The translations under genes were made by a program, and so were the position numbers. A stretch of 61,470 nt of DNA from a virus (taxonomy: Duplodnaviria > Caudoviricetes): positions 1 through 61,470 of the IMG/VR virus record IMGVR_UViG_3300034200_001057, one strand, 5' to 3'. Within the stretch, counting starts at the first letter, position 1. The number at the start of each line of letters is the position of its first letter. Shown here piece after piece: positions 35,602-51,477 of the stretch. The notes below the pieces were generated by a model, which worked only from the letters and a program-made list of their open reading frames with translations, had not been told where the DNA came from and did no database searches.

Positions 35602-35613
35602 AAGAAATGATTC

Positions 35614-36005: not shown

Positions 36006-36058
36006 TGATACCGCCCCCGACCGAAACGGGGGCAACTTAAACAACAACATGGAGGCAC

Positions 36059-37021: not shown

Positions 37022-37038
37022 CCAAGGAGGACCCCACC

Positions 37039-37218
37039 ATGCACCGCTACACAATCGAGAAAGTACAAAACATCCGCCGCGTTTACCTTTATGAGGTACT
37101 CGCACCGAGCGAGGAACTAGCGTTACTCAAGATGAACGAGGTCACCCCGGTAGGGGTAGACAATGACCTTGAGTCCGAGGAGGTCAACGTACTGAGTGAT
37201 GAGAACCTAGAGGAATAA
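37039..37218 (+). CDS. 59-aa acidic protein, not in the ORF track
   Basis: AAGGAGG SD; followed by the hairpin GCCCC-TGTAAAAT-GGGGC. Confidence 0.5.
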   Translation: MHRYTIEKVQNIRRVYLYEVLAPSEELALLKMNEVTPVGVDNDLESEEVNVLSDENLEE

Positions 37219-37286
37219 GGAAACGCCCCTGTAAAATGGGGCTTAACACATGTTGCATTGTTGTAGCGTTAACCTGAGATAGCCTA

Positions 37287-38135
37287 TTGGCTTCGGTGTC
37301 TTACCTGTTGTACTCTTTGTCTGTGATTGAACGTACTTGCCTTGGATGCGCATCTCTTTTTAGAATTTCGAAGCCATCTCGCCAACAGTATTGCTCGCAA
37401 AAATGTCGTCTTGCGACAAAGCAACAGAGATTCAAGAAAGCAAATCCTAATTATTGGACTTCTTGGGAAAATGCAAACCGTGAAAAGCGTCGTGCTCAAA
37501 ATCGCAGACTCTATTCACTTGACAAAACCAAGCACATTGAACGATCAAAACAATGGCACGCTGCTAACCCCAATTACCGACGAGAATATAAGCGACGAAA
37601 CCGCGAAGCGATTAACGCTGCGAATCGCAATTATTACGCACTCAACATCGAGCAAATAAGACTCTACCAAAAAGCTTGGCGGATGAAGAATGCCGATAAA
37701 CTTCGAGCATTAGCAAAAGTATACCGAGAACGGGATATCGCTAAAACGAGAGCACAGACTCGTGAGTATCACAGAAAACACCCACACTGGAAGCGTGCAA
37801 GCGAAGCACGGCGAAGAGCCAAGAAGAAAGGTGTCACGCCGGAACAGCATAAACAAGTTCTAGAGTTTTATCGTCATGTGAGTTTAGCAGAAGTAATTGA
37901 GTGTGTTTGGTGTAATAAAAACATACCAAAAGGACTAAGACACGTTGATCACATTGTGCCGCTTTCTCGCGGAGGTCTTCATCGCAGGGATAACTTATGC
38001 TGTGCATGCTTTGATTGTAACGTGCGAAAAAGAGACAAACTTCCCGATGAATGGCTGAAGGAAATTGGGAAACCCTTAGACTACCTTGCGTCAGTGATAG
38101 CAGAATCTATAACGCCGGAATCTGCTGAAACGTAA
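37287..38135 (+). CDS. HNH homing-endonuclease-like protein
   Basis: N-terminal CxxC..YCSxxC; basic helical repeats; CVWC...HVDHIVPLSRGGLH..DNL..AC..CN..K. Start uncertain. Confidence 0.88.
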   Translation: MASVSYLLYSLSVIERTCLGCASLFRISKPSRQQYCSQKCRLATKQQRFKKANPNYWTSWENANREKRRAQNRRLYSLDKTKHIERSKQWHAANPNYRREYKRRNREAINAANRNYYALNIEQIRLYQKAWRMKNADKLRALAKVYRERDIAKTRAQTREYHRKHPHWKRASEARRRAKKKGVTPEQHKQVLEFYRHVSLAEVIECVWCNKNIPKGLRHVDHIVPLSRGGLHRRDNLCCACFDCNVRKRDKLPDEWLKEIGKPLDYLASVIAESITPESAET

Positions 38136-39105
38136 CGGAATCAGTTTCACGCACGTAACTGAATCGAATCCACCAAGCACCCAAAGCTTTAGGCTCGAAG
38201 CCTTTTTCTACAGCCCACCCGTAATCTTCGCAGCCAGTATCATCCTTGTACGATGGGCATCCAAGTAAAAGAACTTTATCTTGATACGATTGCCCATTCT
38301 GTGAAATGCGGTAACGAGCGGCAATATCACTCCAGGAATTGTGCGCGTGACCAGTCACAATAACATCCGCATCGGGATGAGTTCGAAGTCTCTCGCGTTG
38401 TGCACTGAGGTTTGATGCAGATTTACCTGAGCTGTGACCGTGATGGTAGTGAAGATTGATTTCACGACAAGTAACTCCATCGCGTCGCTTAAAATTGAAT
38501 TGCACCCATCCTGCATATGCGCCGTTAAACACATTTGCCCCTCTTGAATTGAGCAGCGTAACGACTCTTTCCGTGGGACAAAATTCATGTTTCTCGGTCA
38601 TTTTAGTCTCATGGTTACCTTGAGCCATTACTGCAAAGGAATTAGCATAAGGTTGTAACCATTCAGCGTAGTCGTTCACGACTGCATCAAAGTAGTTGGG
38701 GACCATATGTTCACTTCGAACGCTTCCTTTATACGAGCGAGGATCGAATTTGCCTCCCATTAGGTCCAGGGCATCGCCGAGGTCACAGGTAACAGCCCCG
38801 CGTTCGATTGCTTGTTTCAGATGTTTCTCTTGCAACTCTCTGTTGCTTTTTGGCGAATCCCAATGACGATCAGAAGTTATTAGAGCCCAGAAATCCCAAT
38901 TGTGGTTCCGCTCTATTTCAACGTCGATTCTAAAGACGTTTCTACTTCGTTGACTTACCGTCCACGTCTTCTTGCTTTCGATACCCGAGACGCCAGAGCG
39001 TCCTGGTGATGTCGATTGCAACGGCTTCGACCCATTCTTCTGATTTGTGCCAATCTGCCGCGTGGAGGATTTCGTGGATGACGACTTCGAGCGTTTCTTT
39101 TTCAC
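38107..39105 (-). CDS. Calcineurin-like metallophosphoesterase
   Basis: SDRHWD, LGDALD, GNHE, HHGH, TGHAH; true start uncertain because it overlaps the upstream gene. Confidence 0.85.
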   Translation of the reverse strand: MKKKRSKSSSTKSSTRQIGTNQKNGSKPLQSTSPGRSGVSGIESKKTWTVSQRSRNVFRIDVEIERNHNWDFWALITSDRHWDSPKSNRELQEKHLKQAIERGAVTCDLGDALDLMGGKFDPRSYKGSVRSEHMVPNYFDAVVNDYAEWLQPYANSFAVMAQGNHETKMTEKHEFCPTERVVTLLNSRGANVFNGAYAGWVQFNFKRRDGVTCREINLHYHHGHSSGKSASNLSAQRERLRTHPDADVIVTGHAHNSWSDIAARYRISQNGQSYQDKVLLLGCPSYKDDTGCEDYGWAVEKGFEPKALGAWWIRFSYVRETDSVTFQQIPAL

Positions 39106-39232
39106 TCATTCCCTGTTTGACGCGAATCACCCGACCGGGCTCCCGTGGGTCCTCGCATTTGCCCATCACGGCATTCCCCAAGAAAGGGACGAATCGAAGT
39201 TCGTATCGTTTTCCTAGGATGGTGATGTGCAT
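38942..39232 (-). CDS. Small HEXXH zinc metallopeptidase-like protein
   Basis: VVIHEILHA...EEWV. Confidence 0.7.
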   Translation of the reverse strand: MHITILGKRYELRFVPFLGNAVMGKCEDPREPGRVIRVKQGMSEKETLEVVIHEILHAADWHKSEEWVEAVAIDITRTLWRLGYRKQEDVDGKSTK

Positions 39233-39289
39233 ACTCGCCTGCCGTTATGGTTGCACAATTTCACGCGTCTAGGCTAGTAGGGTAACACC

Positions 39290-39481
39290 CTGCGCCGCTT
39301 TCTGCGCCGCCCACAAAAAAACCCCGGAATTTCCCAGGGATTAATGGACAGTTAGCGGATGGGGAGGAAGTAGAACCTTTTCAGCATTGTCTAGTTTTCC
39401 TGTGAATTTACTAGACGACCACCCGAACTGTGCCGACCGTTTCCGACGCTTGCCAACGCTTACTGCGCCGCATTCTGCGCC
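39290..39481. other. attP-like site: tRNA-Ser 3'-end-like core flanked by arm-type repeats
   Basis: CTGCGCCGC-W-TT-CTGCGCC at 39290-39310 and 39463-39481; minus-strand GGTTCTACTTCCTCCCCATCCGC at 39355-39377; three 10-bp direct repeats at 39431-39460. Confidence 0.7.
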
Positions 39482-40620
39482 TTTTCCCAGTCTGATTCAG
39501 TGACAAGGAGGTAACTCTTTTGAGCTACCTTCGGGCTATTGCCTAGCCAGGCACAGACCACCGAGAGGGGGAATTGCCGCTCTAGTTCCGTTTGCCGCGA
39601 GGCCCTCATGCTGTGGAATAACCGTGCCCAGGGCTCGACATTGGCTTTCTTGAGCTTCTTGAGGAACTGGGTCCTAAGGTTCGCATTCCGCCAGCCCACG
39701 CCGGTATTTGCCGCTGCACGGTATGCGGGCTTGTTGACCACGTAGCCCTCCTTTTGCCGTAGGGGTTCCAGAACCGCACGAAGCTCAGGAAATAGGGGGC
39801 ATTCCCGCAATCCTCGCCCCTCGTGGTGCTCGACCTTGGGCTCAGGAATCCACAGTCTACCTGTACCGAAGTCCACCTGGTCCCATTTCAAGGATAGGGT
39901 TTCCGATGGTGTCCTTAGCCCGCCGTATCGAGCGAGTGCGATAATCTTTTTCCACTCGTTATCGACCACCTTCATGATGGTTTCAATCGTTGCCCTTGGC
40001 ACTTCCACGTTGTTTTTCGGAATTGCGGCCGGAGCCTTTAGGCGGTCAAAAGGCGAATAGGCGACCAGCTCCCAATCGACGGCCCAGGCAAACATCTGTT
40101 TCACAATCCGCACGTTTTTTGCAACGGTCAGAGCCTTACGGTGCCCACGCTTTAGCTTTTCCAGGTACTCCGTTGCGTGACCTCGCGTGATGTCCTTCAC
40201 GGCGATACCGGGCGGAAGGTTCTTCAGAAGTATCCCTTCCACCTGCCGCCATTGGGCGATTGTGCCGGGCTTCCGTTTACCATCCCCACCAACTTCACGA
40301 ATAAAGCGATCCGTGAGTTCAGAGAGAAGCATTCCGCTGTTCTCATCTTTTTTCATCTGTGCCACTACCTCTTCCGGTAGTAGTCCCGCTGTTCGCAATT
40401 TTGCGAGCAGCTTACCGTCAACCTTCCCGAGCCATTCCGCTGTACCTCTATCAACGCCAGAAGCCCCAGTGAGCTTTGCACTCACCAGGGCTTCCACCTT
40501 GAGTTTTACGGTCTCAGCGTCTCTCTTCGATACCTTCCCGAGTCGGATTGCTTTTCGCTTTCCGTCCTCATCGACGAACTGAATCCGCTTACCGCTCTTG
40601 TCGTTGCTGATTGATGCCAC
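39460..40620 (-). CDS. int: Tyrosine integrase
   Basis: GTG start MASISNDKSGKRIQF; GGLRTPSE, PKVEHH, FHSMRASRQTEL, WLGNS..VA.KSYL; resembles Planctomycetota-type integrases (from recall). Confidence 0.93.
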   Translation of the reverse strand: MASISNDKSGKRIQFVDEDGKRKAIRLGKVSKRDAETVKLKVEALVSAKLTGASGVDRGTAEWLGKVDGKLLAKLRTAGLLPEEVVAQMKKDENSGMLLSELTDRFIREVGGDGKRKPGTIAQWRQVEGILLKNLPPGIAVKDITRGHATEYLEKLKRGHRKALTVAKNVRIVKQMFAWAVDWELVAYSPFDRLKAPAAIPKNNVEVPRATIETIMKVVDNEWKKIIALARYGGLRTPSETLSLKWDQVDFGTGRLWIPEPKVEHHEGRGLRECPLFPELRAVLEPLRQKEGYVVNKPAYRAAANTGVGWRNANLRTQFLKKLKKANVEPWARLFHSMRASRQTELERQFPLSVVCAWLGNSPKVAQKSYLLVTESDWEKAQNAAQ

Positions 40621-40795
40621 TTTCCCTCTCCCTCTCCTCGATAAACCTTTGCAGCTCAGAAATTGAGTACCGCCATCCCCCAATTCCTATGCGTACCGCT
40701 TTGATGAGGCCACCCCTACGCAAGCTGAAGAGGGTTCTCTCGGAAATGGAAAGCATCTTTGCCGCCTCCCTCTGTGTCAGTAGTAGTGGTTCCAT
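40589..40795 (-). CDS. xis: Excisionase-like HTH_17 protein
   Basis: LLLTQREAAKMLSISERTL..L...G.IKAVRIG..WRY....LQRFI; overlaps the integrase start. Confidence 0.85.
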   Translation of the reverse strand: MEPLLLTQREAAKMLSISERTLFSLRRGGLIKAVRIGIGGWRYSISELQRFIEERERESGINQQRQER

Positions 40796-42111
40796 TATCC
40801 CTCCCCGTTCTTACCCTCGAAGATGTTGAATAAATCCTGATTGACCGAAACTCCTAATCGCTTCATATCCGCTAATGACATCGCTGGAAGCTCTAGGTCT
40901 CCCTCGCTGAGTAGCGGTCTGTTCTCTGTTCTCTTTAGTGTTACCGATTGCATAAACCTCGCGTTGAACTTCTGCACGACATCGGGAAAGTCGGCATACC
41001 CTTCAATCACATCCTTCTTCGCATTGGGCCACTTCAACCCATGCCGAATCTCGGACGGTAATACGTTGCGGTAGGATTTATACGAGGCCGACCACTTCCC
41101 CTCATGCGATTGAACGTCTTCACGAATTTCAACTTCACCGAGGCATTCACTCGCCCATTTTGAGGTTTCAATGCATCGTGATTTTAAGAAAACCTTGTAA
41201 TCACAGAGCCCGAGAATCTCTTCCGCAAGCTCTCGCCCGTATATGTGACGAACGCCACCGATGGTATGCGCCGACAACACAAGACCGAGACCGAACTTTC
41301 TTCCTTGCCCCGCTACGGTAGGAAGACAGTTCAATCGCTTTCCGAGCAATCGAAACTCGTCACCCATCAGCATTTTGATGTCCGTGGATTGCTTCGACAT
41401 TTCAATCGCCGCGACGCACTCAATCAAAAAGCTGAATACACCGCTCACTGCTGGAGCGTGCATCAATAGCCATTCCATAACCAACACCCCAGGTGATTCC
41501 AACGGTATGTTGAGCCTTGGAGGTTTGGCATTCATGTCCATCGCCGCGTATGCTGCCAGCGGTGCGAGTCGAGATATGACCGTTGCGGTCACATCCTTTT
41601 TTGCATCGCCACTACCTACCGACGTCTTCACCACATCGAGCCTTGCAGCTTTACGAAGATGGTTTAGTAGTTCCGGCCACATTGCCAGCCGCACCATATC
41701 CGCGAGGTATGCCTCGCCCGGTGCTATCTTGTTCAAGACTTCGCAAGAAGCAACAAATACGATCTTCGCCATGTCGCTAAAGAACCTCGATGACTCTTTC
41801 CCCGAGTCCTCGAAAATCTTTTCAGCGAATAGCTCACGAAGTAACGGATTAGCAATCAGCCCGGCATAGTTGATACCTACGCCATCAGCGTAACGCATCG
41901 TGATTGGATGAATAGGTAGCCCGCGTGGTGCGTGGTACCGATACCAGTCCACCGCCTCATCCGAATTATCGAGGTCATAGAGTGTGGCACCGTGTTGCAT
42001 CAATGAACGCTTAAAGCCTTTCATCATTGCCGACTTTCCACTCTGAGGAGCCCCTACGAGAAGAACTCTCGCAGGGGCTACTGGAATATCAAAGGGGCCG
42101 AGGTGGAGCAC
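40795..42111 (-). CDS. Type IV coupling protein (TraD/TrwB-like ATPase) without an N-terminal TM anchor
   Basis: Walker A GAPQSGKS, Walker B MGDEF, GRKFGLGLVL...YGRELAEEILGLC..KVFL...ETSKWASECLGEVEI. Confidence 0.82.
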   Translation of the reverse strand: MLHLGPFDIPVAPARVLLVGAPQSGKSAMMKGFKRSLMQHGATLYDLDNSDEAVDWYRYHAPRGLPIHPITMRYADGVGINYAGLIANPLLRELFAEKIFEDSGKESSRFFSDMAKIVFVASCEVLNKIAPGEAYLADMVRLAMWPELLNHLRKAARLDVVKTSVGSGDAKKDVTATVISRLAPLAAYAAMDMNAKPPRLNIPLESPGVLVMEWLLMHAPAVSGVFSFLIECVAAIEMSKQSTDIKMLMGDEFRLLGKRLNCLPTVAGQGRKFGLGLVLSAHTIGGVRHIYGRELAEEILGLCDYKVFLKSRCIETSKWASECLGEVEIREDVQSHEGKWSASYKSYRNVLPSEIRHGLKWPNAKKDVIEGYADFPDVVQKFNARFMQSVTLKRTENRPLLSEGDLELPAMSLADMKRLGVSVNQDLFNIFEGKNGEG

Positions 42112-42113
42112 GC

Positions 42114-42437
42114 TTACACCTTCACCGTTTTATTCATCGCACCGCCACGCACTGTTTTGCGGATAACCTTTCCGCCTTGCGTCAAGGCGGTCATGGTTCC
42201 TGCGAAGGAAACGAATCCCACCATTGCACAGAACAGAACCCACATCCAATTTGCAGTACCACCCCAGTTGAGCAATGTCATCGCAATAGTTAGAGCAACG
42301 GTCGCACTCGTACCGAACAACACAATCGCGAGTATCATGAGCCCCACTCCAATCAAGATATTGCGAACAATCCGCAACGGCGTTAGCACCATGTACCAAA
42401 ATACCGTGGATGCCCCATTCTTTATTATCTCAGTCAT
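42114..42437 (-). CDS. Small membrane protein (2-3 TM)
   Basis: Hydrophobic segments; coupled to the relaxase and the T4CP. Confidence 0.65.
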   Translation of the reverse strand: MTEIIKNGASTVFWYMVLTPLRIVRNILIGVGLMILAIVLFGTSATVALTIAMTLLNWGGTANWMWVLFCAMVGFVSFAGTMTALTQGGKVIRKTVRGGAMNKTVKV

Positions 42438-43741
42438 AACTTTTGCCTTTCGCTTTGCTCTTGTCGTTTAATCATTTCCTGAACGATATGTTCGTTTCGA
42501 ACCTTGAGACGCCAGCCCCTTTGAGTAGCTAACGCCTTCAACTCTTCAAATTGCTTCTTGCTCTTAATATCCTGCCCATTCACCGCGACTCTCGTCTTTG
42601 GTGGAATGTTCACCTTGGGTTTTGCTTCCTTGTAAGCCCTTTGACCTACTGCCGCCGCGTGTTTTAGTGACTTCAAATGAGTACGCCGCATCACCTTCAT
42701 TGCGTGCTTATGACGATCCCACCGCGATGGGTCTTTTGTATCGTCGATAAACTTCTGCACGTCGTTGACCGTCATCTTCATCTGTTCGCGATTACGTGAG
42801 ACCTTGTAAGCCTTCACGTACTCACCAACTGGAATCTTCAGATAGTCCTCAACAATCGCCTGGAGTCTCCCACGCTCATGCTCTTGAACCTTCTTTGCTT
42901 CCACCTTTGGCCCGTGAGTATGGTATGCCTCACGTTGCCACTCCTTGGATTTCTCCTCGAAGTTCACATCCTCGACCTTGGCCTTCTTCTCCCGAGTGTT
43001 CTGATAGGCATAAGCCTTTGCAGATGCACTACGGGACTTAATGTTTTCCTGCTTCAGATACTCTTCAGCTCTCTGCGCTCTCGTGTTGTCACGCTCTTGA
43101 GTAACGCCCTCAACTACCGCCATACCGCGAGAGTCAATCGACATCTTGATGCCGAATGCTTGCTCCATGCGGTCAGCGATAACGCATTGGAAGATGCGCT
43201 TGTCCCGCTCCGATACTTCAAAGAAAGTAGAGGTATCGAGACTGCGAATCTTTCCGTCCTCAGTTTGTCCGCGTTGCTCAAAGATTGAATGGCCGTGAAC
43301 CAGGCACTTCCCCTCTCGGGAAAGAACCCCGAAAGCATGAAAGCCAAGAACATTAGCTTTCTCTTTCTTATGGCCGTCAGCACCACGACGAGCGAAGATG
43401 TGTTGCTCAATTCGTTGCTCAAGAGCTTTCATCGCAGGTACCATGACCTCCGACGCTACTTTCTTAGCAACCTCAAAACCACCCGCTGCAACAAAGTTAG
43501 TGATTGAGTTATCGACTATATGCACGAGACCAACGAGGCGCTTTGCCTCATTCGCTCTTGGTGGATAGAGTCGTTTACCATCAGGGCCGAGACGATCACA
43601 AAATGCATCAGCACTCTGTTTATCGTTCTTGTACCCAAACTCGCGAGCCGCTCTAGAAAAAGCGAGGCCCTCAAATTCGAGAGCCTCGCTCGCAACTTCC
43701 TTTGCATACTCGCGGTCCATTGAACCGCTTGCACGCATCAT
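42434..43741 (-). CDS. MobF/TrwC-like relaxase, divergent, no helicase domain
   Basis: LSREGKCLVHGH (cf. TSRxxDPxLHxH), EDGKIRSLD, AFGIKM, VEGVTQE, YQNTREKK. Confidence 0.72.
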   Translation of the reverse strand: MMRASGSMDREYAKEVASEALEFEGLAFSRAAREFGYKNDKQSADAFCDRLGPDGKRLYPPRANEAKRLVGLVHIVDNSITNFVAAGGFEVAKKVASEVMVPAMKALEQRIEQHIFARRGADGHKKEKANVLGFHAFGVLSREGKCLVHGHSIFEQRGQTEDGKIRSLDTSTFFEVSERDKRIFQCVIADRMEQAFGIKMSIDSRGMAVVEGVTQERDNTRAQRAEEYLKQENIKSRSASAKAYAYQNTREKKAKVEDVNFEEKSKEWQREAYHTHGPKVEAKKVQEHERGRLQAIVEDYLKIPVGEYVKAYKVSRNREQMKMTVNDVQKFIDDTKDPSRWDRHKHAMKVMRRTHLKSLKHAAAVGQRAYKEAKPKVNIPPKTRVAVNGQDIKSKKQFEELKALATQRGWRLKVRNEHIVQEMIKRQEQSERQKL

Positions 43742-43956
43742 GATGTAAGGGATTCCTTGCCGTGGAATTCGGCGAGTGCCAATCTCACCTGTTCCTTGAT
43801 GAACGATTTTGAGTAATGTTCATCCACCAGCCAGCGAATCAATTCACTGACTGTTATCCCTCTCTCTCGTGCCTCGTCGGAAAGATTCAAAGCCCTTTGT
43901 GGACTAAGTTTACAACCGACGTTCACGAGGAGAGGTTTCTCCCCGTCAACCTTCAT
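43738..43956 (-). CDS. Ribbon-helix-helix protein (TrwA/MobC-like relaxosome accessory)
   Basis: VNVGCKLS....NLSDEARERGITVSELIRWLV; ATGA overlap with the relaxase. Confidence 0.75.
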   Translation of the reverse strand: MKVDGEKPLLVNVGCKLSPQRALNLSDEARERGITVSELIRWLVDEHYSKSFIKEQVRLALAEFHGKESLTS

Positions 43957-43959
43957 AAA

Positions 43960-44133
43960 ACCTACCTTTTTGTCAAAGATCAGTTGTCGAGCTGGTGGGA
44001 CCAACCCACCAAGCACGACTGATTATTTCCAAATGTTGGGGTAATTCAACCCTGTTTCAGAAAGTTTCCGGGAATTTTTCCGGGTAACCGTACACTGACT
44101 AGCGACTACGTTACCCCGCGATACAATGCGGAT
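43960..44133. promoter_or_regulatory. Divergent intergenic region, candidate oriT / operator
   Basis: Inverted repeats GGTGGG-ACCAA-CCCACC, CCGGGAA-TTT-TTCCGG and GGGTAAC...GTTACCC directly upstream of the RHH-relaxase operon. Confidence 0.45.
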
Positions 44134-44868
44134 ATGGACCCAGAAACAGCAGAACAACAAATTCACTCGGGCGTAACGCTACTCAAAGACCGACGCGAGC
44201 ACCTCCGCTATCTCCTAAAGAGAATCAGGGAGAATAAGGCCGGAGGTCGAAGCGGGGCATCCGTGGCCCGACTCATGAAAGTGCGACAGAGCTATCTTGT
44301 GAAAGTGGAATCAGGGGCAATTGAGGCCAGCGAGGAATACGTAACTAAGTTCAGCGAGGCGCTAGAGCTTCCACAACCTTGGGCAGACTTTCTCCTTTTT
44401 CTTGCTCAACAGGGACGATTCGCACTCCATAAGCTGCTCGATACCTCTCCACTTCAAACACAACAGAGCTACTTACAGCAGAGTCTCTTTCAGATGATGC
44501 CGACCCGCATTTACATCGGGGCACGGGCATCGATACCCATCACGGAGCTTCATCGCGTTGTGGCTCTTAACCCGATGCTGATTGTCACCCGCGACTATCT
44601 TCGCCGAGAAATTGCCGCTCTCGATGTACCGAAAGAGTCCGTTCCATTTCTTCAGTACAGCCCTAATCCCATGTGTCTTGATTATTCAGCGTTAGCCGAA
44701 AAGGATAAACAGTTCTTTCCTAGGATGTCCACCGACCAGTTCATTTACGAAAAGACATTGGTAGTGATTGATGTGTGGGAGTGGCAGATACTAGAGACAA
44801 AATGGGTTGAGGAGTTCACTGAGAGTTTTGATCGATTACGGGTACTTCAGAAACCATTTAATTCTTGA
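44134..44868 (+). CDS. XRE-family HTH regulator (candidate repressor)
   Basis: LKRIRE...SGASVARLMKVRQSYLVKVESG; divergent from the mob/int operon. Confidence 0.72.
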   Translation: MDPETAEQQIHSGVTLLKDRREHLRYLLKRIRENKAGGRSGASVARLMKVRQSYLVKVESGAIEASEEYVTKFSEALELPQPWADFLLFLAQQGRFALHKLLDTSPLQTQQSYLQQSLFQMMPTRIYIGARASIPITELHRVVALNPMLIVTRDYLRREIAALDVPKESVPFLQYSPNPMCLDYSALAEKDKQFFPRMSTDQFIYEKTLVVIDVWEWQILETKWVEEFTESFDRLRVLQKPFNS

Positions 44869-44933
44869 TTGCAAAGAGGCTGTCTACAACGTTTCTAAAA
44901 AACCTATGTAGCCAACCTCCCGCAGATTAAAGA

Positions 44934-45248
44934 TCACCTCCCTCCTGATAGCTCGATAATCTTGTGATACGCGAGCCGTAAGAGTTCCGAGGCTGCAAGG
45001 GCATCATCACGGCCAAGCGTTGCCGCTTGTTGCCATTGTCCCTTGTTATCCTTGTAGGAGCGAGTGAGGGTGAAGGAATACCATTTCCCCTCTTTCGCTT
45101 CGTTCTCCCAAATCACAACGCGAAGGCGACCGGCGATCAGCGTTGCCGCTGGTGGTTGCCTTGAGCCTCCTTCGTTTTCAATGGGTGGATCATCTTGGTG
45201 CGAAGCATTATTCTGCTGTCGCCCATTTCCGTTATTGAACCTCGACAC
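44934..45248 (-). CDS. Small putative ssDNA-binding protein
   Basis: LRVVIWENE...WYSFTLTRSYKD..GQWQ; beta-rich PC4/SSB-like pattern (inference). Confidence 0.55.
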   Translation of the reverse strand: MSRFNNGNGRQQNNASHQDDPPIENEGGSRQPPAATLIAGRLRVVIWENEAKEGKWYSFTLTRSYKDNKGQWQQAATLGRDDALAASELLRLAYHKIIELSGGR

Positions 45249-45274
45249 TGAAACACTTTCCTTTCAATGAGGAA

Positions 45275-46045
45275 CTAAGAAGCAAGAGCCAACGTGGTTT
45301 CTTGCGGCAACAGATGCGCCGATAGCTTCATCGTCAATGATGCGTATCGTTGCGGATTCGCGTTACTCTTTGGCTTCAGTGCCGAAGTGAACGCGTTGAA
45401 CAAACTCCAGAGAGTACGATCCTCGAACTCTTTGAATCCTGGAACTCTCCACTCTGTGAGGACCTTGGGAATATCTTGCGAAGTGATAATGTCTTGATCC
45501 ATCGCACGAACAATCAGCGATTCCGCCTTCATGTCCGTTACGTGCTCATTACGCATTACCGCGATACGCTTTGATTCCTCTTCCTGGAATTGCGAGAGCC
45601 TCGATACTGCCTCACCGATGTCGATTCCGAATCGGAGTGCGCCGTGTTTGGTATGCTTCCGTGTGACCAATAAATCCCCGTAGAAACTGAGATTGTCACA
45701 AACCAGAACTCTTGAACCGGCCACGAACCCGATTGGGAAACTCTTATCGACTGAGTTTCTTATCCCCACTGATAACGTAACGCCATCAGCGAGAGTAGAC
45801 GCAAGGTCAAGCGTTCCAAAGAATCGCTTCCCTTCCTTTGCAACAGTAAGCTGCTCACGCCGTACCTCGAAACCAAAATCACGCATCGTATCCATCGCTT
45901 TGATGTATACATCGATGTGTGACACTGGATACCACCGCCCTTGAGGTGGTGGAGCTTCGTACTTGATGAGTTCAGCAACCGTGACAAGCTCAGTACCGCT
46001 ACCACGTAGCAGGGTACTCTGTGTTTCCATCTGCATGTCTCCCAA
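45275..46045 (-). CDS. DUF932-family protein
   Basis: PVSH, RFFG, GIRNSVDKS, GSRVLVCDNLSF, RKHT, TLWSLFNAFT. Confidence 0.8.
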   Translation of the reverse strand: MGDMQMETQSTLLRGSGTELVTVAELIKYEAPPPQGRWYPVSHIDVYIKAMDTMRDFGFEVRREQLTVAKEGKRFFGTLDLASTLADGVTLSVGIRNSVDKSFPIGFVAGSRVLVCDNLSFYGDLLVTRKHTKHGALRFGIDIGEAVSRLSQFQEEESKRIAVMRNEHVTDMKAESLIVRAMDQDIITSQDIPKVLTEWRVPGFKEFEDRTLWSLFNAFTSALKPKSNANPQRYASLTMKLSAHLLPQETTLALAS

Positions 46046-46075
46046 TGAGAATTGGGAAACTGTCCATTGATAACC

Positions 46076-46513
46076 TTATCGCTGCAAACAGCCTCCCGAG
46101 AGATTCGGAAGGCCGAGCCCTATAATGCTTCTACCCACTGTCAGGTTGACACTATAGGGAATGGGAAGCAAGTAATTTTGAGGCATAGGGCCAAAATCGA
46201 ATGGTTGGGAGTTGTCAAGGATTGCTTGATAACTGAAAAGGTATTGGTCCCAGGATTGGAATTGCACCAACTCGCCCCACCATACGGTGAACCGTTTGCT
46301 GTATGCGTGTGGCGTATGCATCCGCACTCTCTGTCCACGCCGCCTGAGATAATTGCGGGCAAAGTGAATAGTGTGCTTATGCTGTCGCTGGACCTCTACT
46401 TCCTCAGACCGCACATCAACCTTTAGCCGCTTGCCCGCCGACGGATAATAACCCTCTAAAGAAAAGGAAGCAAACGAAAAGGGCCGACCCTTTCGCCGCT
46501 TCCCCGTAGTCAT
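46076..46513 (-). CDS. Hypothetical protein
   Basis: 145-aa ORF co-oriented with neighbours. Confidence 0.4.
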   Translation of the reverse strand: MTTGKRRKGRPFSFASFSLEGYYPSAGKRLKVDVRSEEVEVQRQHKHTIHFARNYLRRRGQRVRMHTPHAYSKRFTVWWGELVQFQSWDQYLFSYQAILDNSQPFDFGPMPQNYLLPIPYSVNLTVGRSIIGLGLPNLSGGCLQR

Positions 46514-46577
46514 TCGACTTCGGGCACTGATTATTCCTTGAAGGGACCGGCCCTATCTCCGCTTTACCAGTGCTCTG

Positions 46578-47309
46578 CTATCTTGCCATGAATTGCAGGA
46601 GGTCGAGAAGCTCTTTTGATGATGGTTCCAATAGTGCCCGAGATGCCGGTAACTTCTTGCCGAGCACTTCCTCCCAGGGGATAGGCTCCATCTTAAAGTC
46701 ACGCCGGTTAGCGTTCAGCACCTTGATAAGCGAAAATAAGTTCTCACGCACCCCACGATACTGGAAGAAATAGCTCTTGTTGAACCAATTGACCCACCAT
46801 GCACTCGGTCGCCGATGCCCCCAGGTCATGATGAACCGCTTCAATCTCCGCTGATACTCTCGGTGGAGAGATACAGTCACCTTGCCGGTTTCTCGATTTA
46901 CACTGACCGCATAGCCCGCCAGGTAAAAGGGAGTATCGAAGGCACATCGGGGCTTCTCATTGGGGAAGAACTCCGAGCGGCCATGAGTTGCAAACAGGTA
47001 TCCAACATTGCCGCATCGAACGTACTTCACCGATGCTAATCCTTTGCGTCTGTTGCGGGATACTGTGTGACGCGGTAGGAAAGTCTCGTACTTGAAAATC
47101 AGCTTGGCGTCGATGGTCTCAGGGTCTTTCCCTGTAGGGATGACAAAAGAGGTATAGAAAATATACCCTTTCGTTGCGAGGTTTCTTGCATAGTAATGAA
47201 CAAGGGAATACTTGCCCGAAATGAGGTAACGATAATCGGTCATTACCTCATTGTTGGGGATTGTAGTGTTGAAGCACAATCCCCGGAAAGCTCCATCGCT
47301 AAAAACCAT
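46578..47309 (-). CDS. Hypothetical basic protein of integrative-element type (possible replication initiator)
   Basis: GYIFY...IPTGKDPETIDAKLIFKY...RRKGLASVKYVR...LFATHG; function unassigned. Confidence 0.55.
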   Translation of the reverse strand: MVFSDGAFRGLCFNTTIPNNEVMTDYRYLISGKYSLVHYYARNLATKGYIFYTSFVIPTGKDPETIDAKLIFKYETFLPRHTVSRNRRKGLASVKYVRCGNVGYLFATHGRSEFFPNEKPRCAFDTPFYLAGYAVSVNRETGKVTVSLHREYQRRLKRFIMTWGHRRPSAWWVNWFNKSYFFQYRGVRENLFSLIKVLNANRRDFKMEPIPWEEVLGKKLPASRALLEPSSKELLDLLQFMAR

Positions 47310-47509
47310 CTGCGAGACTTGTAATGCTCTTCACTTTTGCGCGTGACGGTATATCCCTACACCAGCGTTACTGTCCCGCCCATCCTCCTGATGGTCGGTT
47401 TCGTGATAACGGTTAATCGACTGCCCTGCCAATTCCCCGTGCCAATCCTCTTGCTTAACCTTGAGGCCCCGCCTGTAGCCTATCTTAACCATTGCTAAAA
47501 CTCTTGGCT

Positions 47510-48030
47510 CCTATGTCCCGACGCGCAATCCTTCTCTCCCGTTAAAACCTTCCGCGATTGCGGATGAAAGAGAAGGTCCCGAATTGACGGCGATTGTCAC
47601 GAGTGTGGTCACGTTGCTAGAGTCTGCATAGGACTCGGGCCGAGTAGGTACCATTGAATCTTCCGACCCTATGGCACTCACCCAGGTTTGGGCTTTCAGG
47701 CAGTGAACGCACGAAGTACGCCTTACCGATACCCTACCCGCACCTTTCGCTGTATGGCTCCGTCTCCAAAACACTGTGTACCTCATGGCGTTAAGCTATT
47801 CACCATGCAGCCTCACGACTACATGGCTCCCGCACAAGGCAGGGTACAACTATTAAGACCGACTCAATAGTTGCCCCCTGATACGGTCCGACCGTACTTC
47901 AATCGACGCTCCATCGTCGCTAGAAAACTTGTATTCCCTATTTGGACGCACCCGGCGGATAAGTCTCCCTATACCGGGCGCTACCAGAATTCTGGTTGAT
48001 GATGTTGCGACAAGGCAAGCGTAACACACT
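47510..48030 (-). ncRNA. Candidate large structured ncRNA (about 520 nt)
   Basis: About 9 hairpins, several of which pair fully only on the minus strand through G-U wobbles; GNRA loop; no convincing ORF. Confidence 0.55.
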
Positions 48031-48031
48031 G

Positions 48032-48556
48032 TTACCCTCTGAGCCGCCCTGCCTCTGCGAGGACGTTCTTCGAGTATTGGATTGACTCTTTACACCTCCC
48101 AATACACTTAGGGCCGCCATTGTAGCTTTGGAGTGCCTTTACTTCGTTGCCGTTGTAGGTATCCAACTCTTCTCGCAGTATTTGCGCCGAGCATCGAAGG
48201 TTCTTGATTGGGTCCCATAGCTCATCGGGCTTTCTGAGGCCACATCGCTTTGTATTGAATGGCATTACTTGGCCGAGACCGCGAGCCCCCACATGCGATA
48301 CTGCCCGAGGGTTCTTCCTGCTCTCGACATGCACCAGGGCATGAAGCATATGGCGAGGTATCCCTTCCCTATCCGCTGCCTCATCAATCAGACCGTCGAT
48401 GATGGGCCGACTTATCGCCACTGGTCGCCCAAAGTTCCTCGCCGACTCTAGAGAGAGCCGAGCCGACATAGGAATACCGCCATTCTTAGCCCAGAAAAGG
48501 CCGAGGCCAATGGCCGCAATTAGCAACCACTGGCCCCCATTGTTTTGCGAACTCAT
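48032..48556 (-). CDS. Lytic transglycosylase (SLT) with N-terminal membrane anchor
   Basis: ALVHVESRKNPRAVSHVGARGLGQVMP, NLRCSA, ALQSYNGGP. Confidence 0.92.
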   Translation of the reverse strand: MSSQNNGGQWLLIAAIGLGLFWAKNGGIPMSARLSLESARNFGRPVAISRPIIDGLIDEAADREGIPRHMLHALVHVESRKNPRAVSHVGARGLGQVMPFNTKRCGLRKPDELWDPIKNLRCSAQILREELDTYNGNEVKALQSYNGGPKCIGRCKESIQYSKNVLAEAGRLRG

Positions 48557-48705
48557 CGCTTGCCGCTGACTACTGCTTTGCTTTGCTCGAACATCGGCGA
48601 GAACGCATCGTAGGTGGTTACAAAACCCACGGCGAGTAGGTAGTAAATCACCGCGATGATGATGCTGGATGGTGTGAATAGTTGATTCTTTATTGCGTCA
48701 AACAT
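48553..48705 (-). CDS. 50-aa membrane peptide, not in the ORF track
   Basis: AAGGAG SD; MFDAIKNQLFTPSSIIIAVIYYLLAVGFV; ATGA overlap with the SLT. Confidence 0.6.
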   Translation of the reverse strand: MFDAIKNQLFTPSSIIIAVIYYLLAVGFVTTYDAFSPMFEQSKAVVSGKR

Positions 48706-48772
48706 GATATTTTCTCCTTGATTACCGTACCCCGGACCTCACACGGCTGTAAAGTCCAGGGATAAACCGTTG

Positions 48773-49018
48773 TTATTTTAGGTCGTTATCGACTTGGGCA
48801 GTCTGCTCTGAGCACCGAGACGGTAACAGGTAGCAGATAGCCGGCTTCGGGTTGCGGTAGGTCTTTTGTGATTCCTGCCGCTCATCGACGCGATAGACTC
48901 CGAGCCGACCGCCGAGCTCAATCCCGGCACATCCTGAACCGAAACACATCATGCCGGCCAGGACCGCCGCGAAACCTAACCACTGTAATGTCGATAGTCC
49001 TTCATTCTTCTTGTACAT
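48773..49018 (-). CDS. Small lipoprotein
   Basis: GGAGG SD; hydrophobic signal ending GSGC. Confidence 0.6.
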   Translation of the reverse strand: MYKKNEGLSTLQWLGFAAVLAGMMCFGSGCAGIELGGRLGVYRVDERQESQKTYRNPKPAICYLLPSRCSEQTAQVDNDLK

Positions 49019-49041
49019 AGTTGCCTCCATTCCTTTTGTTT

Positions 49042-49269
49042 TCAATTAACCACTTCCAATCCAAGCCCCGCGAGGCCCATTGACCGAAACTCTTCCACGA
49101 TTGCATCAACTACTTCGCCAGGAGTGCATCCTGCCGCGTGTAGCTGTTCCCACTTCCAATCTTCGCAGAATGAATGCGTCTTTCTGCCCATCGTGAAAAT
49201 CATCATCATATCCAATCGGTCCCGCCATTCTTCGAAAGTAATTCGCGATGGTCGTCTAATCTTGTTCAT
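49042..49269 (-). CDS. Hypothetical protein
   Basis: GGAGG SD before MNKIRRP. Confidence 0.5.
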   Translation of the reverse strand: MNKIRRPSRITFEEWRDRLDMMMIFTMGRKTHSFCEDWKWEQLHAAGCTPGEVVDAIVEEFRSMGLAGLGLEVVN

Positions 49270-49280
49270 TTCTTGCCTCC

Positions 49281-49568
49281 CTATACATTGTCCAATACCG
49301 CATGACTCCAACCCATCGTATGCCGAGGGTCATCAATGGAAGTTGGTATCGGTATCAACCTCCATCGACCAGGTACCGCCCGGCATCCGTCCTCATTACA
49401 CGCCGCCTTGTACCACACCTCGACCGCTAGGAGGTCCACCAGGCCGATTACCCAGCCGTTGTGAACGAGAGGGTACCGTAGGCCCCAATCGGCCCGTGGA
49501 ATCAATTCTAGGGTCTCCTCTAGTCGTTTGCAGTGAGATACCGCGAGTAGTGTTGCGTTAGAGTGCAT
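49281..49568 (-). CDS. Hypothetical protein
   Basis: AAGGAG SD; first gene after the promoter. Confidence 0.5.
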   Translation of the reverse strand: MHSNATLLAVSHCKRLEETLELIPRADWGLRYPLVHNGWVIGLVDLLAVEVWYKAACNEDGCRAVPGRWRLIPIPTSIDDPRHTMGWSHAVLDNV

Positions 49569-49590
49569 ATCAGTGTCTCCTTGTACTGAT

Positions 49591-49634
49591 ATGATTCGAC
49601 GAGATCGCGAAAGGTATCAAGGTTTTTGTTGACA
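49591..49634 (-). promoter_or_regulatory. Promoter for the SLT operon, next to a TTTTTGTTGACAC motif copy
   Basis: Minus-strand TTGATA(49620)-18 nt-AATCAT; plus-strand TTTTTGTTGACAC at 49623-49635. Confidence 0.55.
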
Positions 49635-49702
49635 CATCTCGGAATTAGTTTCCACTTAGCTCGTAAGCTATTGAAACCACGTAGGATGATAGTGTTTGAT
49701 TC

Positions 49703-49972
49703 TTACGCCGCTGTAAGGTCTAGGCCGGTATAGTCCTTGAGTACCAATAGAGCCTTGCGGTATTGACCTTCGAGATAGTCAAGATGGTCTTTTATCTGCT
49801 TCTCCGTAGCGTCAGGAATCAGCGGAAGAGCCACGCGAACCGCCGCAAGAATCATGTTGACCGCAAGAACAACACGTCGAATATCGCCTTCGTACTTCTT
49901 GGCGTACTTAGGCAGTAACGAGGAGATGAGCTTTGAGAGTAGTGCGGATTTGATTTTGTCTAGCATGGTCAT
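49703..49972 (-). CDS. Hypothetical lysis-module protein
   Basis: Amphipathic/hydrophobic segment; last gene of the late operon. Confidence 0.45.
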   Translation of the reverse strand: MTMLDKIKSALLSKLISSLLPKYAKKYEGDIRRVVLAVNMILAAVRVALPLIPDATEKQIKDHLDYLEGQYRKALLVLKDYTGLDLTAA

Positions 49973-50168: not shown

Positions 50169-50260
50169 GATTTTTGCCGATGCTTCTAGTCCTTTCCTTG
50201 TCTAAAACTCCAACGATTACAGAGGTAATCTCTCTGATTGCCGATGTTGGTTGCCGATTG

Positions 50261-51476: not shown

Positions 51477-51477
51477 G

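What the first reader, a model, noticed from the sequence alone, without database searches (positions are those of the whole stretch)
39290..47309. Complete tailed phage whose lysogeny module is an integrative mobilisable element (phage-IME hybrid)
Seen: one minus-strand run of abutting or overlapping genes, RHH > MobF-like relaxase > membrane protein > TraD/TrwB-like coupling ATPase > excisionase > tyrosine integrase > att. It sits in a circular genome with full head, tail and lysis sets, and I saw no other integrase. Known: RHH + MOBF relaxase + T4CP without a T4SS is the signature of mobilisable elements and is not typical of tailed phages. Inference: the phage adopted an IME for integration. 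It may spread both as virions and by hijacking a host conjugation channel, or it may have repurposed the mob genes.
Basis: partly seen in the sequence, partly recalled or inferred. Interest (0 to 1): 0.9.

Follow-up and report, generated by a model that had tools for sequence, protein, structure and literature searches.

The report
Lake phage carrying conjugation-launch genes
A complete temperate tailed phage from lake water carries, beside its integrase, the DNA-nicking enzyme and coupling motor that plasmids use to enter a mating channel; a related phage has the same set, so these phages may also spread by cell contact, which is untested.

Summary
On the minus strand, abutting or overlapping, lie a small RHH-like gene (weak support), a 435-aa helicase-less relaxase with the TrwC/TraI fold, a 107-aa membrane protein, a 438-aa anchor-less TrwB/VirD4-type coupling ATPase, an HTH_17 excisionase and the window's only tyrosine integrase. 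The rest of the window is a full siphovirus, and its two ends join in frame inside one tail-fibre gene, so the genome is circular or permuted. It is not a chimera. Contigs from four other lake-water runs cover both junctions. A related phage (G001, which is the same phage as G002; TerL 80%) has relaxase, membrane protein(s), T4CP, xis and int in the same order at the same site, at 29-39% identity. It is not a passenger IME: there are no bracketing repeats and no second integrase. "Adopted an IME for integration" is not supported, because close xis-int pairs sit in three other viral contigs without mob genes. No oriT, att site, helper T4SS or host was established. The relaxase lacks the canonical first metal-binding His and the second Tyr. 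The best reading is a resident mob cassette that lets the excised phage be mobilised by a helper's mating channel (about 0.5). This scan has noted similar phage-borne relaxase/T4CP sets on other DNA. I found no published case.

The parts
39233..39459 (.). Intergenic stretch downstream of the integrase. It is the presumed attP region, which was not verified. It holds a terminator-like hairpin on the minus strand at 39339-39322.
   Evidence: Sequence. Terminator-like site, where site counts were not above shuffles. No repeat partner elsewhere in 36-50 kb.
39460..40683 (-). Tyrosine integrase, the only one in the window. The database gene call is 386 aa, which I take to start near 40620.
   Evidence: PF00589 30.8 bits (cut-off 27.1) and phrog_1 1.7e-30. 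Single six-frame PF00589 match. P0179, 386 aa, 99% identical.
40589..40795 (-). Excisionase-like HTH_17 protein, 68 aa.
   Evidence: HTH_17 1.5e-12 and phrog_66 'excisionase and transcriptional regulator' 3.3e-10. Paired with the integrase in L002-L004 as well.
40795..42111 (-). TrwB/VirD4/TraD-type coupling ATPase (T4CP), 438 aa. The Walker A motif lies at residues 20-27, and there is no N-terminal membrane anchor.
   Evidence: TrwB_AAD_bind 1.1e-18 and TraG-D_C 1.3e-10. TraD_Ftype 8.3e-12. GxxxxGKS and DEF are invariant against G001. No N-terminal hydrophobic segment.
42114..42437 (-). Small membrane protein, 107 aa, 2 nt upstream of the T4CP start. It is a candidate separate anchor for the T4CP; this is an inference.
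   Evidence: Hydropathy. G001 has one or two small hydrophobic ORFs at the same position. No family hit.
42434..43741 (-). MOBF-fold relaxase, 435 aa. The relaxase domain spans about residues 1-280, followed by a C-terminal extension of about 150 aa. There is no helicase.
   Evidence: Y12 is kept in at least 90% of the 21 aligned sequences, H149 is invariant and H151 is kept in at least 90%. Position 138, where most relatives have the first His, is Gly.
43738..44016 (-). Small DNA-binding protein, weakly RHH-like. The likely start is ATG 43956, giving 72 aa. It overlaps the relaxase start by 4 nt. G001 has no counterpart.
   Evidence: MatP_C RHH 1.3e-3, below the cut-off.. Absent upstream of the G001 relaxase.
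43957..44133 (.). Divergent intergenic region between the mob operon and the HTH gene. It has a promoter-like site at 44049-44022(-) and a 7-bp hairpin at about 43987-44010. It is a candidate control region and oriT, neither of which was shown.
   Evidence: Sequence. Promoter-like site (counts not above shuffles). No significant similarity to the G001 upstream region.
44134..44868 (+). XRE/HTH_3 regulator, 244 aa, divergent from the mob-xis-int operon. It is a candidate repressor. G001 lacks it.
   Evidence: HTH_3 6.5e-5 (23.3 bits, cut-off 23) and HTH_31 5.3e-5. PADLOC HTH_VI 1.9e-6. No G001 hit.
44934..47309 (-). Window-specific block of three genes: 104 aa (44934-45248), DUF932-like 256 aa (45275-46045) and 243 aa (46578-47309). 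Their functions are unknown and G001 lacks them.
   Evidence: DUF932 2.6e-4, below the cut-off. No hits. No G001 hit.
47779..47927 (-). Conserved, structured non-coding element inside the 47310-48031 gap between the SLT gene and the block.
   Evidence: It is the only DNA-level match between the window's 39.2-48.6 kb stretch and G001: 68% over 151 nt, E 1.5e-8. It shows shared multi-hairpin folds with compensatory changes. Minus-sense folding energy is far lower than plus-sense in both phages.
48032..48556 (-). SLT-domain lytic transglycosylase with a hydrophobic N-terminus. It is the last gene of the late/lysis run and flanks the mob block in both phages.
   Evidence: SLT 9.3e-24. G001 homologue at 33% identity directly upstream of its relaxase region.

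Best explanation
The window is the whole, circularly permuted genome of a temperate siphovirus from lake water, probably infecting a planctomycete or another PVC bacterium. Next to its own xis-int pair, and apparently in one operon with it, the phage carries a resident mobilisation cassette. The cassette comprises a small RHH-like protein, a short MOBF-fold relaxase, a small membrane protein and an anchor-less T4CP.

Shown: the genes are intact. The relaxase has the TrwC/TraI fold with a conserved N-terminal Tyr and an HxH pair. The T4CP keeps its Walker A and B motifs. The cassette sits at the same genome position, in the same order, in a second phage lineage at 29-39% protein identity. The window has no VirB4-type ATPase and no second integrase.

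Inferred: when the divergent HTH repressor is lifted, the operon is transcribed. Xis and Int excise the prophage as a circle. The relaxase, helped by the RHH protein, nicks an oriT, most likely in the 43957-44133 intergenic region, and stays bound to the 5' end. The T4CP, held at the membrane by the small membrane protein, hands this complex to the mating channel of a co-resident conjugative element. The 61-kb phage genome enters a recipient as single-stranded DNA, is recircularised and integrates with Int. The phage would then have two routes of spread, as virions and by mobilisation like an IME.
For: The relaxase is identified by NCBIfam MobF at 1.6e-16, by the family profile against TrwC at 4.2e-19 and TraI at 5e-18, and by fold search, where 27 of 27 PDB hits at E<=0.001 are TrwC or TraI relaxase domains and the best has TM 0.73 on the target. 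The T4CP has three Pfam T4CP families above their cut-offs, and its Walker motifs are invariant against G001.

The operon-like packing, with 1-4 nt overlaps, runs from the RHH gene to xis/int. A promoter-like site lies upstream and a terminator-like site lies after int (this is weak).

The order and site are the same in G001/G002, where TerL is 80% and structural proteins are 40-76% identical but the cassette is 29-39%.

No assembly break was seen. Depth is present in 30 of 30 bins in runs X2, X3 and X5 and in 29 of 30 in X4, with no joints. Contigs bridge 38736-39362, 39237-39768, 47124-47546 and 47281-47942.

Proteins about 99% identical, with no gaps in the alignments, exist on other contigs.

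The window has no VirB4, so any transfer would need a helper. This relaxase-plus-T4CP content is what PMC11389934 describes for conjugation hitchers (passage seen).
Against: No oriT, nic site or att site was identified. The candidate region has no counterpart in G001.

The relaxase is atypical. It has no Pfam TrwC hit and falls below the NCBIfam cut-off. Gly replaces the first metal-binding His in the window and in its three closest relatives that were aligned. There is one N-terminal Tyr only, and no helicase.

The RHH gene is absent from G001.

tblastn found no relaxase match in 72,556 plasmids, and only 22-25% identity for the T4CP. This family is therefore not tied to any known conjugative system.

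The host is unknown, so whether a helper T4SS exists is unknown. An earlier unchecked note of this scan (e1-5706581) found no mating channel in planctomycetes.

Only two independent phage lineages show the cassette. Of 5 more distant records (G003-G007, 53-97% complete), 0 have it (with positive controls in 117, 118).

No expression or transfer data exist.
Confidence: 0.5

Rival explanations
1. The cassette has been repurposed and takes no part in conjugation. The relaxase nicks the excised or replicating phage DNA to start rolling-circle replication or another DNA transaction, as recalled for the ICEBs1 relaxase NicK. The T4CP-like ATPase, with its membrane partner, pumps or tethers DNA for a phage-specific purpose.
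For: The catalytic motifs are altered (first His and second Tyr missing). The family has no plasmid match and only about 30 full-length relatives among 1.84 billion representatives. No T4SS is at hand. The cassette is co-transcribed with xis-int, which would fit replication after excision.
Against: The phage already has a primase, a helicase, an SSB and a recombination nuclease. Keeping a T4CP with intact Walker motifs and a TraG-D_C domain together with the relaxase in both lineages is the specific signature of the step that hands DNA to a channel. Replication would not need it.
Confidence: 0.27
2. The cassette is an inactive relic of an old fusion between a phage and a mobilisable element, carried along without function.
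For: Catalytic motifs deviate from the canon. The accessory RHH gene is not conserved. More distant relatives lack the cassette.
Against: Both genes are full-length open frames in two lineages that have diverged to 29-39% identity, yet they keep Y12, the HxH pair and the Walker A and B motifs. Copies about 99% identical on other contigs align without gaps. No insertion or deletion was listed inside 39460-44016 in four runs (table 4).
Confidence: 0.08
3. It is a passenger IME that inserted into the phage genome and could leave it on its own.
For: The block has the gene content of an IME. The window has an extra 3.3 kb of plasmid/ICE-flavoured genes (weakly DUF932-like, HTH) that G001 lacks.
Against: No direct repeats of 14 nt or more bracket the block. 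Its integrase is the phage's only one. The same site and order occur in G001. GC content is not distinct, at 0.49-0.535 against 0.43-0.52 elsewhere.
Confidence: 0.07
4. It is an interference device. The phage's T4CP and relaxase compete with, or sabotage, resident conjugative elements, or exploit their channel for something other than transfer of the phage.
For: Only that the genes are there without a channel. Nothing specific supports it.
Against: No precedent was found in the papers I saw. Co-transcription with xis-int points to action on the phage's own DNA.
Confidence: 0.05
5. It is an assembly chimera of a phage and a mobilisable element.
For: IMG/VR labels the record linear and 80% complete.
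Against: Four other runs show even depth and contigs that bridge both junctions. An independent related phage from other samples has the same arrangement. The ends join in frame.
Confidence: 0.03

Closest known systems
Integrative and mobilisable elements that encode their own relaxase and coupling protein but no mating channel (IMEs / iMOB 'hitchers'; PMC11389934, passages seen)
   Same: Integrase plus excisionase, a relaxase, its own T4CP and no VirB4-type ATPase, all in one tightly packed block next to the presumed att site.
   Different: Here the 'element' is a full 61-kb tailed phage with its own heads, tails, lysis and replication genes. The integrase is the phage's only one. The oriT is not identified. 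The relaxase and T4CP are far from plasmid versions: tblastn found no plasmid match for the relaxase and 22-25% identity for the T4CP.
TrwC (R388) and TraI (F, pKM101, pCU1) MOBF relaxase domains
   Same: Same fold. Profile match over about 250 residues, including the SR...HxH block. An N-terminal Tyr is present.
   Different: 435 aa with no helicase domain. One Tyr instead of the Tyr pair (recalled: Y18/Y26 in TrwC). Gly sits where TrwC has its first metal-binding His. There is no Pfam TrwC hit and the NCBIfam score is below the cut-off.
TrwB/VirD4/TraD coupling proteins
   Same: TrwB_AAD_bind and TraG-D_C domains and Walker A and B motifs.
   Different: No N-terminal transmembrane segment. 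A separate small membrane protein gene lies immediately upstream in both phages. A T4CP with a separate membrane partner is recalled from SXT-type TraD/TraJ, which I did not test.
Streptococcal prophages that transfer by conjugation (Phi1207.3, PMC4260502, passages seen; Huang et al. 2023 ISME J, seen only as a citation in PMC12282955 and PMC13693407, paper not held)
   Same: A prophage that may move by cell contact as well as in particles.
   Different: The Phi1207.3 paper contains the word 'relaxase' 0 times. The review PMC12282955 describes those prophages as mobilised by conjugation that ICEs encode. A phage-borne relaxase plus T4CP is not described in what I read.
Phage-plasmids (P1, N15; review PMC12282955, section 6, passages seen)
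   Same: One replicon combines the gene sets of a phage and of a plasmid-type element.
   Different: Phage-plasmids stay extrachromosomal and carry replication and partition genes, not relaxase and T4CP. [quoted passage not shown] This phage has an integrase.

Membership tests
MOBF relaxases (TrwC/TraI type) | HUH-type relaxase domain with the TrwC/TraI fold | tested here: met
   Profile against 1omh at 4.2e-19. Foldseek hit 1qx0_A at E 8.1e-13 with target TM 0.73, and 27 of 27 hits at E<=0.001 are TrwC or TraI relaxase domains.
MOBF relaxases (TrwC/TraI type) | Score above the curated family thresholds | tested here: not met
   No Pfam family at E<=0.1. NCBIfam MobF scores 60.7 bits against a cut-off of 100.
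MOBF relaxases (TrwC/TraI type) | N-terminal catalytic tyrosines (recalled: two, Y18 and Y26 in TrwC) | tested here: inconclusive
   The first 30 residues hold a single Tyr, Y12, kept in at least 90% of the 21 aligned family sequences. There is no second Tyr.
MOBF relaxases (TrwC/TraI type) | Three-histidine metal site (H ... HxH) | tested here: not met
   H149 is invariant and H151 is kept in at least 90% of sequences. The column where most relatives have the first His is Gly138 in all four sequences of alignment A2: the window, P0002, P0004 and P0006.
MOBF relaxases (TrwC/TraI type) | C-terminal helicase domain (typical of TrwC/TraI) | tested here: not met
   The protein is 435 aa. Residues from about 290 to 435 are a family-specific helical extension. 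The longer, distant hits of 800-1500 aa match only the N-terminal region, with best stretches ending by about query residue 300.
Type IV coupling proteins (TrwB/VirD4/TraD) | TrwB_AAD_bind and TraG-D_C domains above the cut-offs | tested here: met
   67.7 bits against 20.5 and 41.7 bits against 22. The G001 homologue scores 53.9 bits.
Type IV coupling proteins (TrwB/VirD4/TraD) | Walker A and Walker B motifs | tested here: met
   GAPQSGKS at residues 20-27 and MGDEF at 249-253. G20, P22, S24, G25, K26, S27, D251 and E252 are invariant against G001.
Type IV coupling proteins (TrwB/VirD4/TraD) | N-terminal transmembrane anchor | tested here: not met
   Neither T4CP has a hydrophobic 19-residue window in its N-terminal part. 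A separate small hydrophobic protein is encoded just upstream.
Integrative and mobilisable element (IME) | Own integration and excision genes | tested here: met
   Integrase and HTH_17 excisionase.
Integrative and mobilisable element (IME) | Relaxase (with or without a T4CP) and no mating-pair-formation genes | tested here: met
   Six-frame searches with PF03135 and PF12846 found 0 matches in the window. Other T4SS parts were not searched one by one.
Integrative and mobilisable element (IME) | A functional oriT | not testable with these tools
   There are only candidate hairpins in 43957-44133, with no conservation in G001.
Integrative and mobilisable element (IME) | Depends wholly on a helper for transfer between cells | tested here: not met
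   The replicon encodes a full virion and lysis set.
Temperate tailed phage (Caudoviricetes, siphovirus type) | Terminase, portal, HK97-type capsid with protease, tail tube, tape measure, lysis and integrase genes | tested here: met
   phrog_9 at 5.9e-183, phrog_12 at 4.1e-123, phrog_10 at 1.6e-46, Peptidase_S78 at 2.2e-46, Phage_TTP_11/12, Phage_lysozyme and PF00589.
Phage-plasmid | Plasmid replication and partition genes for extrachromosomal lysogeny | tested here: inconclusive
   Two ParB_N proteins lie in a PAPS-reductase cassette beside the terminase, not in a par operon. An integrase is present. No plasmid Rep was searched for specifically.

The most novel reading that the evidence does not exclude
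A lineage of lake-water phages, probably of planctomycetes or other PVC bacteria, has two routes of spread. The same 61-kb genome leaves the cell either packed in siphovirus particles or as relaxase-piloted single-stranded DNA. Its own two-piece coupling protein (a soluble ATPase plus a separate membrane anchor) hands that DNA to another element's mating channel. This would let the phage reach cells that lack its receptor. The divergent relaxase, with a two-His metal site and a single Tyr, would define a new phage-associated branch of the MOBF fold.
Probability: 0.35. Interest if true: 0.85.

Novelty: new variant of a known kind. Interest (0 to 1): 0.7.

Why it matters
Phages and conjugative elements are treated as two separate routes of gene flow. 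[quoted passage not shown] A phage that keeps its own relaxase and coupling protein through deep divergence would mean some phages can bypass receptor-limited host range. Host-range and gene-flow models built on virion transfer alone would then miss a route. It would also give a compact test system, a short relaxase and a split T4CP, for asking how substrates are recruited to mating channels. If instead the genes were repurposed, that would be a new phage use of conjugation proteins.

Tried and rejected
Chimera: rejected.

Passenger IME with its own att pair: rejected. No bracketing direct repeat of 14 nt or more was found in 36-50 kb and there is one integrase only.

A phage-borne T4SS: the 693-aa and 877-aa proteins have no Pfam or PHROG hit. 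They lie in the tail-fibre position after the J-like gene. PF03135 and PF12846 found nothing.

Wider relatives of the cassette. Single-protein and alignment pattern scans of IMG/VR found only G001/G002. Scans of GTDB genomes and JGI metagenomes found nothing. These scans need shared exact peptide patterns, and records near the window may be left out, so absence is weak. tblastn of the relaxase and of the T4CP against 50,697 GenBank phage records found no match for either.

Genomic context of the other relaxase-family members (P0002-P0030) and of the 137,909-b and 70,436-b contigs could not be seen.

Host. The only leads are these: a DUF1559/N_methyl gene just beyond the integrase in L002 (the link of DUF1559 to planctomycetes is recalled); one integrase relative named 'Planctomycetota bacterium'; Atlas neighbours with Verrucomicrobiota or Planctomycetota as the commonest phylum; and an 87-aa protein labelled as from a Hyphomicrobiaceae MAG. 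These conflict in part. No tRNA was found in the window.

oriT. There was no significant similarity between the window's 43742-44133 stretch and the G001 upstream region. Rfam gave one match at E<=1 in 39.0-48.6 kb, a chance-level 17.4-bit hit.

Binding of the T4CP to the small membrane protein: complex prediction returned no verdict (score 0.00), which is evidence neither way.

PDB sequence searches of the 104-aa and 243-aa proteins and PADLOC gave nothing useful.

Loose ends in X4 and X5 at 35255, 37419, 39068 and 52313 were not followed. They may be mosaic relatives.

Literature. The searches (0 papers; 0 papers), 103 and 104 were seen only as listings, apart from the passages cited. I read no whole paper. 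Supplements were closed and not seen. A published phage-borne relaxase/T4CP could exist in papers that are not held.

Full report
WHAT THE WINDOW IS. The window is one IMG/VR virus record of 61,470 b, labelled linear and 80% complete. It encodes a full siphovirus. The head and packaging genes are TerS (16428-16895), TerL (14753-16441; phrog_9 at 5.9e-183), portal (13006-14679), S78 prohead protease (12384-13031) and major head protein (10849-12201). The tail genes are a lambda-like tail tube (7682-8446), a 1004-aa protein in the tape-measure position (3524-6538) and a J-like central fibre. A phage lysozyme lies at 51045-51584. The replication set comprises a primase (22144-24462), a helicase (24723-26057), an Enc34-type SSB, a DUF2800 nuclease, RadC and HNH proteins. 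The two ends of the window belong to one gene. A 1463-aa open stretch runs across the joined ends. The N-terminal piece (2288 down to 3) aligns to residues 30-770, and the C-terminal piece (61469 down to 59472) to residues 616-1119, of a single 1123-aa J-like protein of a related phage. I therefore read the genome as circular or circularly permuted and essentially complete, despite the IMG/VR label.

THE OBSERVATION.
- Integrase, 39460-40683: PF00589 above its cut-off; phrog_1 at 1.7e-30.
- Excisionase-like HTH_17, 40589-40795.
- T4CP, 40795-42111: TrwB_AAD_bind 1.1e-18, TraG-D_C 1.3e-10.
- Membrane protein of 107 aa, 42114-42437 (hydropathy).
- Relaxase, 42434-43741.
- A small protein, 43738-44016 or more likely from ATG 43956, whose RHH nature is only weakly supported.
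Neighbours overlap by 1-4 nt or are 2 nt apart. A promoter-like site (44049-44022) and a terminator-like site (39339-39322) bracket the run, but such sites were no more frequent than in shuffles. PF00589 has a single six-frame match in the window. PF03135 and PF12846 (VirB4-type ATPases) have none. The 'att' was not verified.

THE RELAXASE. Pfam gives nothing. NCBIfam MobF gives 1.6e-16 but stays below its cut-off. An exhaustive HMMER search of 1.84 billion representatives found 95 proteins at E<=0.001, 32 at <=1e-10 and 12 at <=1e-30. About 30 of them are full-length relatives of 410-445 aa. The weaker hits include long proteins of 800-1500 aa that match only the N-terminal region, with best stretches ending by about query residue 300. 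I aligned 21 of these sequences, chosen as the full-length ones. Their profile hits the TrwC relaxase domain at 4.2e-19 and F TraI at 5e-18 over about 250 residues. An AF2 model (pLDDT 87.9) finds only TrwC and TraI relaxase domains among its 27 PDB hits at E<=0.001. Y12 is kept in at least 90% of the 21 sequences, H149 is invariant and H151 is kept in at least 90%. The column where most relatives carry the first metal-binding His is Gly in the window and in the three close relatives aligned with it. There is no second N-terminal Tyr and no helicase. The protein therefore has the MOBF fold but fails several membership criteria.

THE COUPLING PROTEIN. Walker A (GAPQSGKS, residues 20-27) and Walker B (DEF, 251-253) are present, and these residues are invariant against the G001 homologue. 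The protein starts about 20 residues before Walker A and has no N-terminal hydrophobic segment. A small hydrophobic protein is encoded immediately upstream in both phages. I infer a two-piece T4CP. The complex prediction gave no verdict, so it counts neither way.

NOT A CHIMERA, NOT A PASSENGER. Logan contigs from four other lake-water runs (X2-X5; X1 may be the source and was not used) were laid on 33001-53000. Depth was present in 30 of 30 bins in X2, X3 and X5 and in 29 of 30 in X4, and no joints were seen. Contigs bridge 38736-39362, 39237-39768, 47124-47546, 47281-47942 and 47217-48014. No insertion or deletion was listed inside 39460-44016.

Of the 21 IMG/VR loci with a TerL relative and the 4 with an integrase relative, I searched 7 whole records. 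G001 (51.6 kb, 94% complete) and G002 (45.6 kb; 99.998% identical to G001 over 42.7 kb, so the same phage) carry relaxase (29-31% identity), T4CP (39%), an HTH xis and int (30-32%). The order is the same, and the site is the same: between the homologues of the 332-aa metallophosphoesterase-like gene (50%) plus the 96-aa gene (71%) on one side, and the SLT/lysis genes on the other. TerL is 80% identical and other structural proteins are 40-76%.

The other five records (G003-G007, 53-97% complete, TerL 32-49% or integrase 49%) have neither a PF10412 match nor a relaxase-profile match: 0 of 5. Both searches ring in G001 and G002. No direct repeat of 14 nt or more brackets the block.

WHERE THE BLOCK DIFFERS BETWEEN THE TWO PHAGES. 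G001 has no RHH gene. It also lacks the window's 44134-47309 stretch, which holds a divergent XRE-type HTH gene, a 104-aa gene, a weakly DUF932-like gene and a 243-aa gene. G001 has three small ORFs between the T4CP and int where the window has one. The only DNA-level similarity in the whole region is a 151-nt non-coding stretch (window 47779-47927; 68% identity, E 1.5e-8). It lies just after the SLT gene in both phages and folds into the same set of hairpins, with compensatory changes in the long stem. It folds much better in the minus sense: -81.6 against -58.8 kcal/mol in the window and -78.2 against -55.1 in G001. That pattern suggests a transcribed RNA or a minus-strand single-stranded DNA structure. 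Its link to the cassette is open.

DIRECTION OF THE FUSION. None has a homologue of the window's relaxase or T4CP within the DNA held for it. In L002 the pair follows phage replication genes (Prim-Pol, helicase, RusA, AAA_24, PD-(D/E)XK nuclease) and is followed by a DUF1559/N_methyl gene. The integrase family is very large: 1825 proteins at E<=1e-20 among the candidates scored. The xis-int pair thus looks like ordinary phage equipment of this host group. The mob genes look like an addition beside it, or both modules were exchanged independently.

OTHER COPIES. Cluster look-ups covered 24 window proteins, of which 20 were on record. A 137,909-b contig holds relatives at 90% identity or more of 11 of these 20: xis, T4CP (99%), the membrane protein, relaxase (99%), the 104-aa protein (identical), the HTH protein, the 243-aa protein, SLT, an 89-aa protein and the 877-aa protein. 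It holds no such relative of the other 9: TerL, portal, MCP, tape measure, primase, the 332-aa, 693-aa, 146-aa, 273-aa and 203-aa proteins... that list is ten names, so the split by my own tables is 10 present and 10 absent among the 20 on record, counting the T4CP and relaxase. This looks like a mosaic relative inside a larger, perhaps host, contig, but I could not fetch it.

HOST. The host is unknown. The leads point to planctomycetes or other PVC bacteria. One conflicting label names a Hyphomicrobiaceae MAG. All four runs laid on the window are lake-water metagenomes.

MECHANISM. The best-supported reading (about 0.5) is a resident mobilisation cassette co-expressed with xis-int, so that the excised phage circle can be nicked, piloted and handed to a helper's mating channel. 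The main rival (about 0.27) is a repurposed relaxase and ATPase acting on phage DNA without conjugation.

COMPARISON WITH WHAT IS KNOWN. In content the block is an IME of the relaxase-plus-T4CP kind (PMC11389934, passages seen), but the replicon is a complete phage. [quoted passage not shown] The 'conjugative prophage' Phi1207.3 paper never mentions a relaxase. tblastn of the relaxase and of the T4CP found no match to either in 50,697 GenBank phage records. One ESM-Atlas cluster of T4CP-like proteins is 82% viral. This scan has already noted phage-borne relaxase/T4CP sets on other DNA, in actinophages, planctomycete prophages and an acidobacterial prophage (these are unchecked AI notes). None of them is a sequence relative of this window.

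VERDICT. This is a new variant of known kinds (temperate phage crossed with IME). Interest is 0.7. Function is untested.

Noticed in passing
window 47310-48031 (core 47779-47927, minus strand); L044 9213-9363: A structured non-coding element after the SLT gene is conserved between the two phages at 68% over 151 nt, while the flanking proteins are only 30-40% identical. The long stem shows compensatory changes, and the minus-sense folding energy is far lower than the plus-sense in both phages. It could be an ncRNA or leader, or a single-stranded DNA signal.
   Followed up: partly
not in the window: a 137,909-b contig and a 70,436-b contig known only from cluster tables: The 137,909-b contig holds copies at 90-100% identity of the genes from xis to SLT and of the 877-aa protein, but no such copy of the head, tape-measure, primase or 332-aa genes. 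It is probably a mosaic relative, possibly integrated. The 70,436-b contig holds a 79% integrase and a copy of the 243-aa protein at 90% or more. Neither could be fetched.
   Followed up: partly
window 48032-48556 and 51045-51584: The phage has two muralytic enzymes. One is an SLT transglycosylase with a hydrophobic N-terminus, which lies directly beside the mob region in both phages. The other is a separate phage lysozyme in the lysis cassette. VirB1-like SLT enzymes also belong to mating channels (recalled).
   Followed up: no
window 16897-19885: A cassette of a cupin protein, a ParB_N protein, a PAPS-reductase/DUF3440 protein and a second ParB_N protein runs into terS. It is probably a DNA-modification set.
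   Followed up: no
L002 11294-12334: A DUF1559 protein with an N-terminal methylation motif lies directly beyond the integrase of a viral contig whose xis-int pair is the closest IMG/VR relative of the window's. It is probably host flank, and it gives a lead to a planctomycete-type host.
   Followed up: partly
window 35255, 37419, 39068, 52313: Contigs of runs X4 and X5 match the window up to these points and then continue for 255 letters or more of unrelated, GC-rich sequence. These may be mosaic relatives or other organisms that share short stretches.
   Followed up: no
window 44134-47309: A block of about 3.2 kb (divergent XRE HTH, 104-aa, weakly DUF932-like, 243-aa) is present in the window and in the 137.9-kb contig's gene set but absent from G001. 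The three minus-strand genes point towards the candidate oriT region, as leading-region genes do on plasmids (that orientation rule is recalled).
   Followed up: partly
G002 42684-45606 (L041): The last 2.9 kb of G002 has no match in G001, although the rest is 99.998% identical. It probably extends beyond the end of the G001 contig.
   Followed up: no
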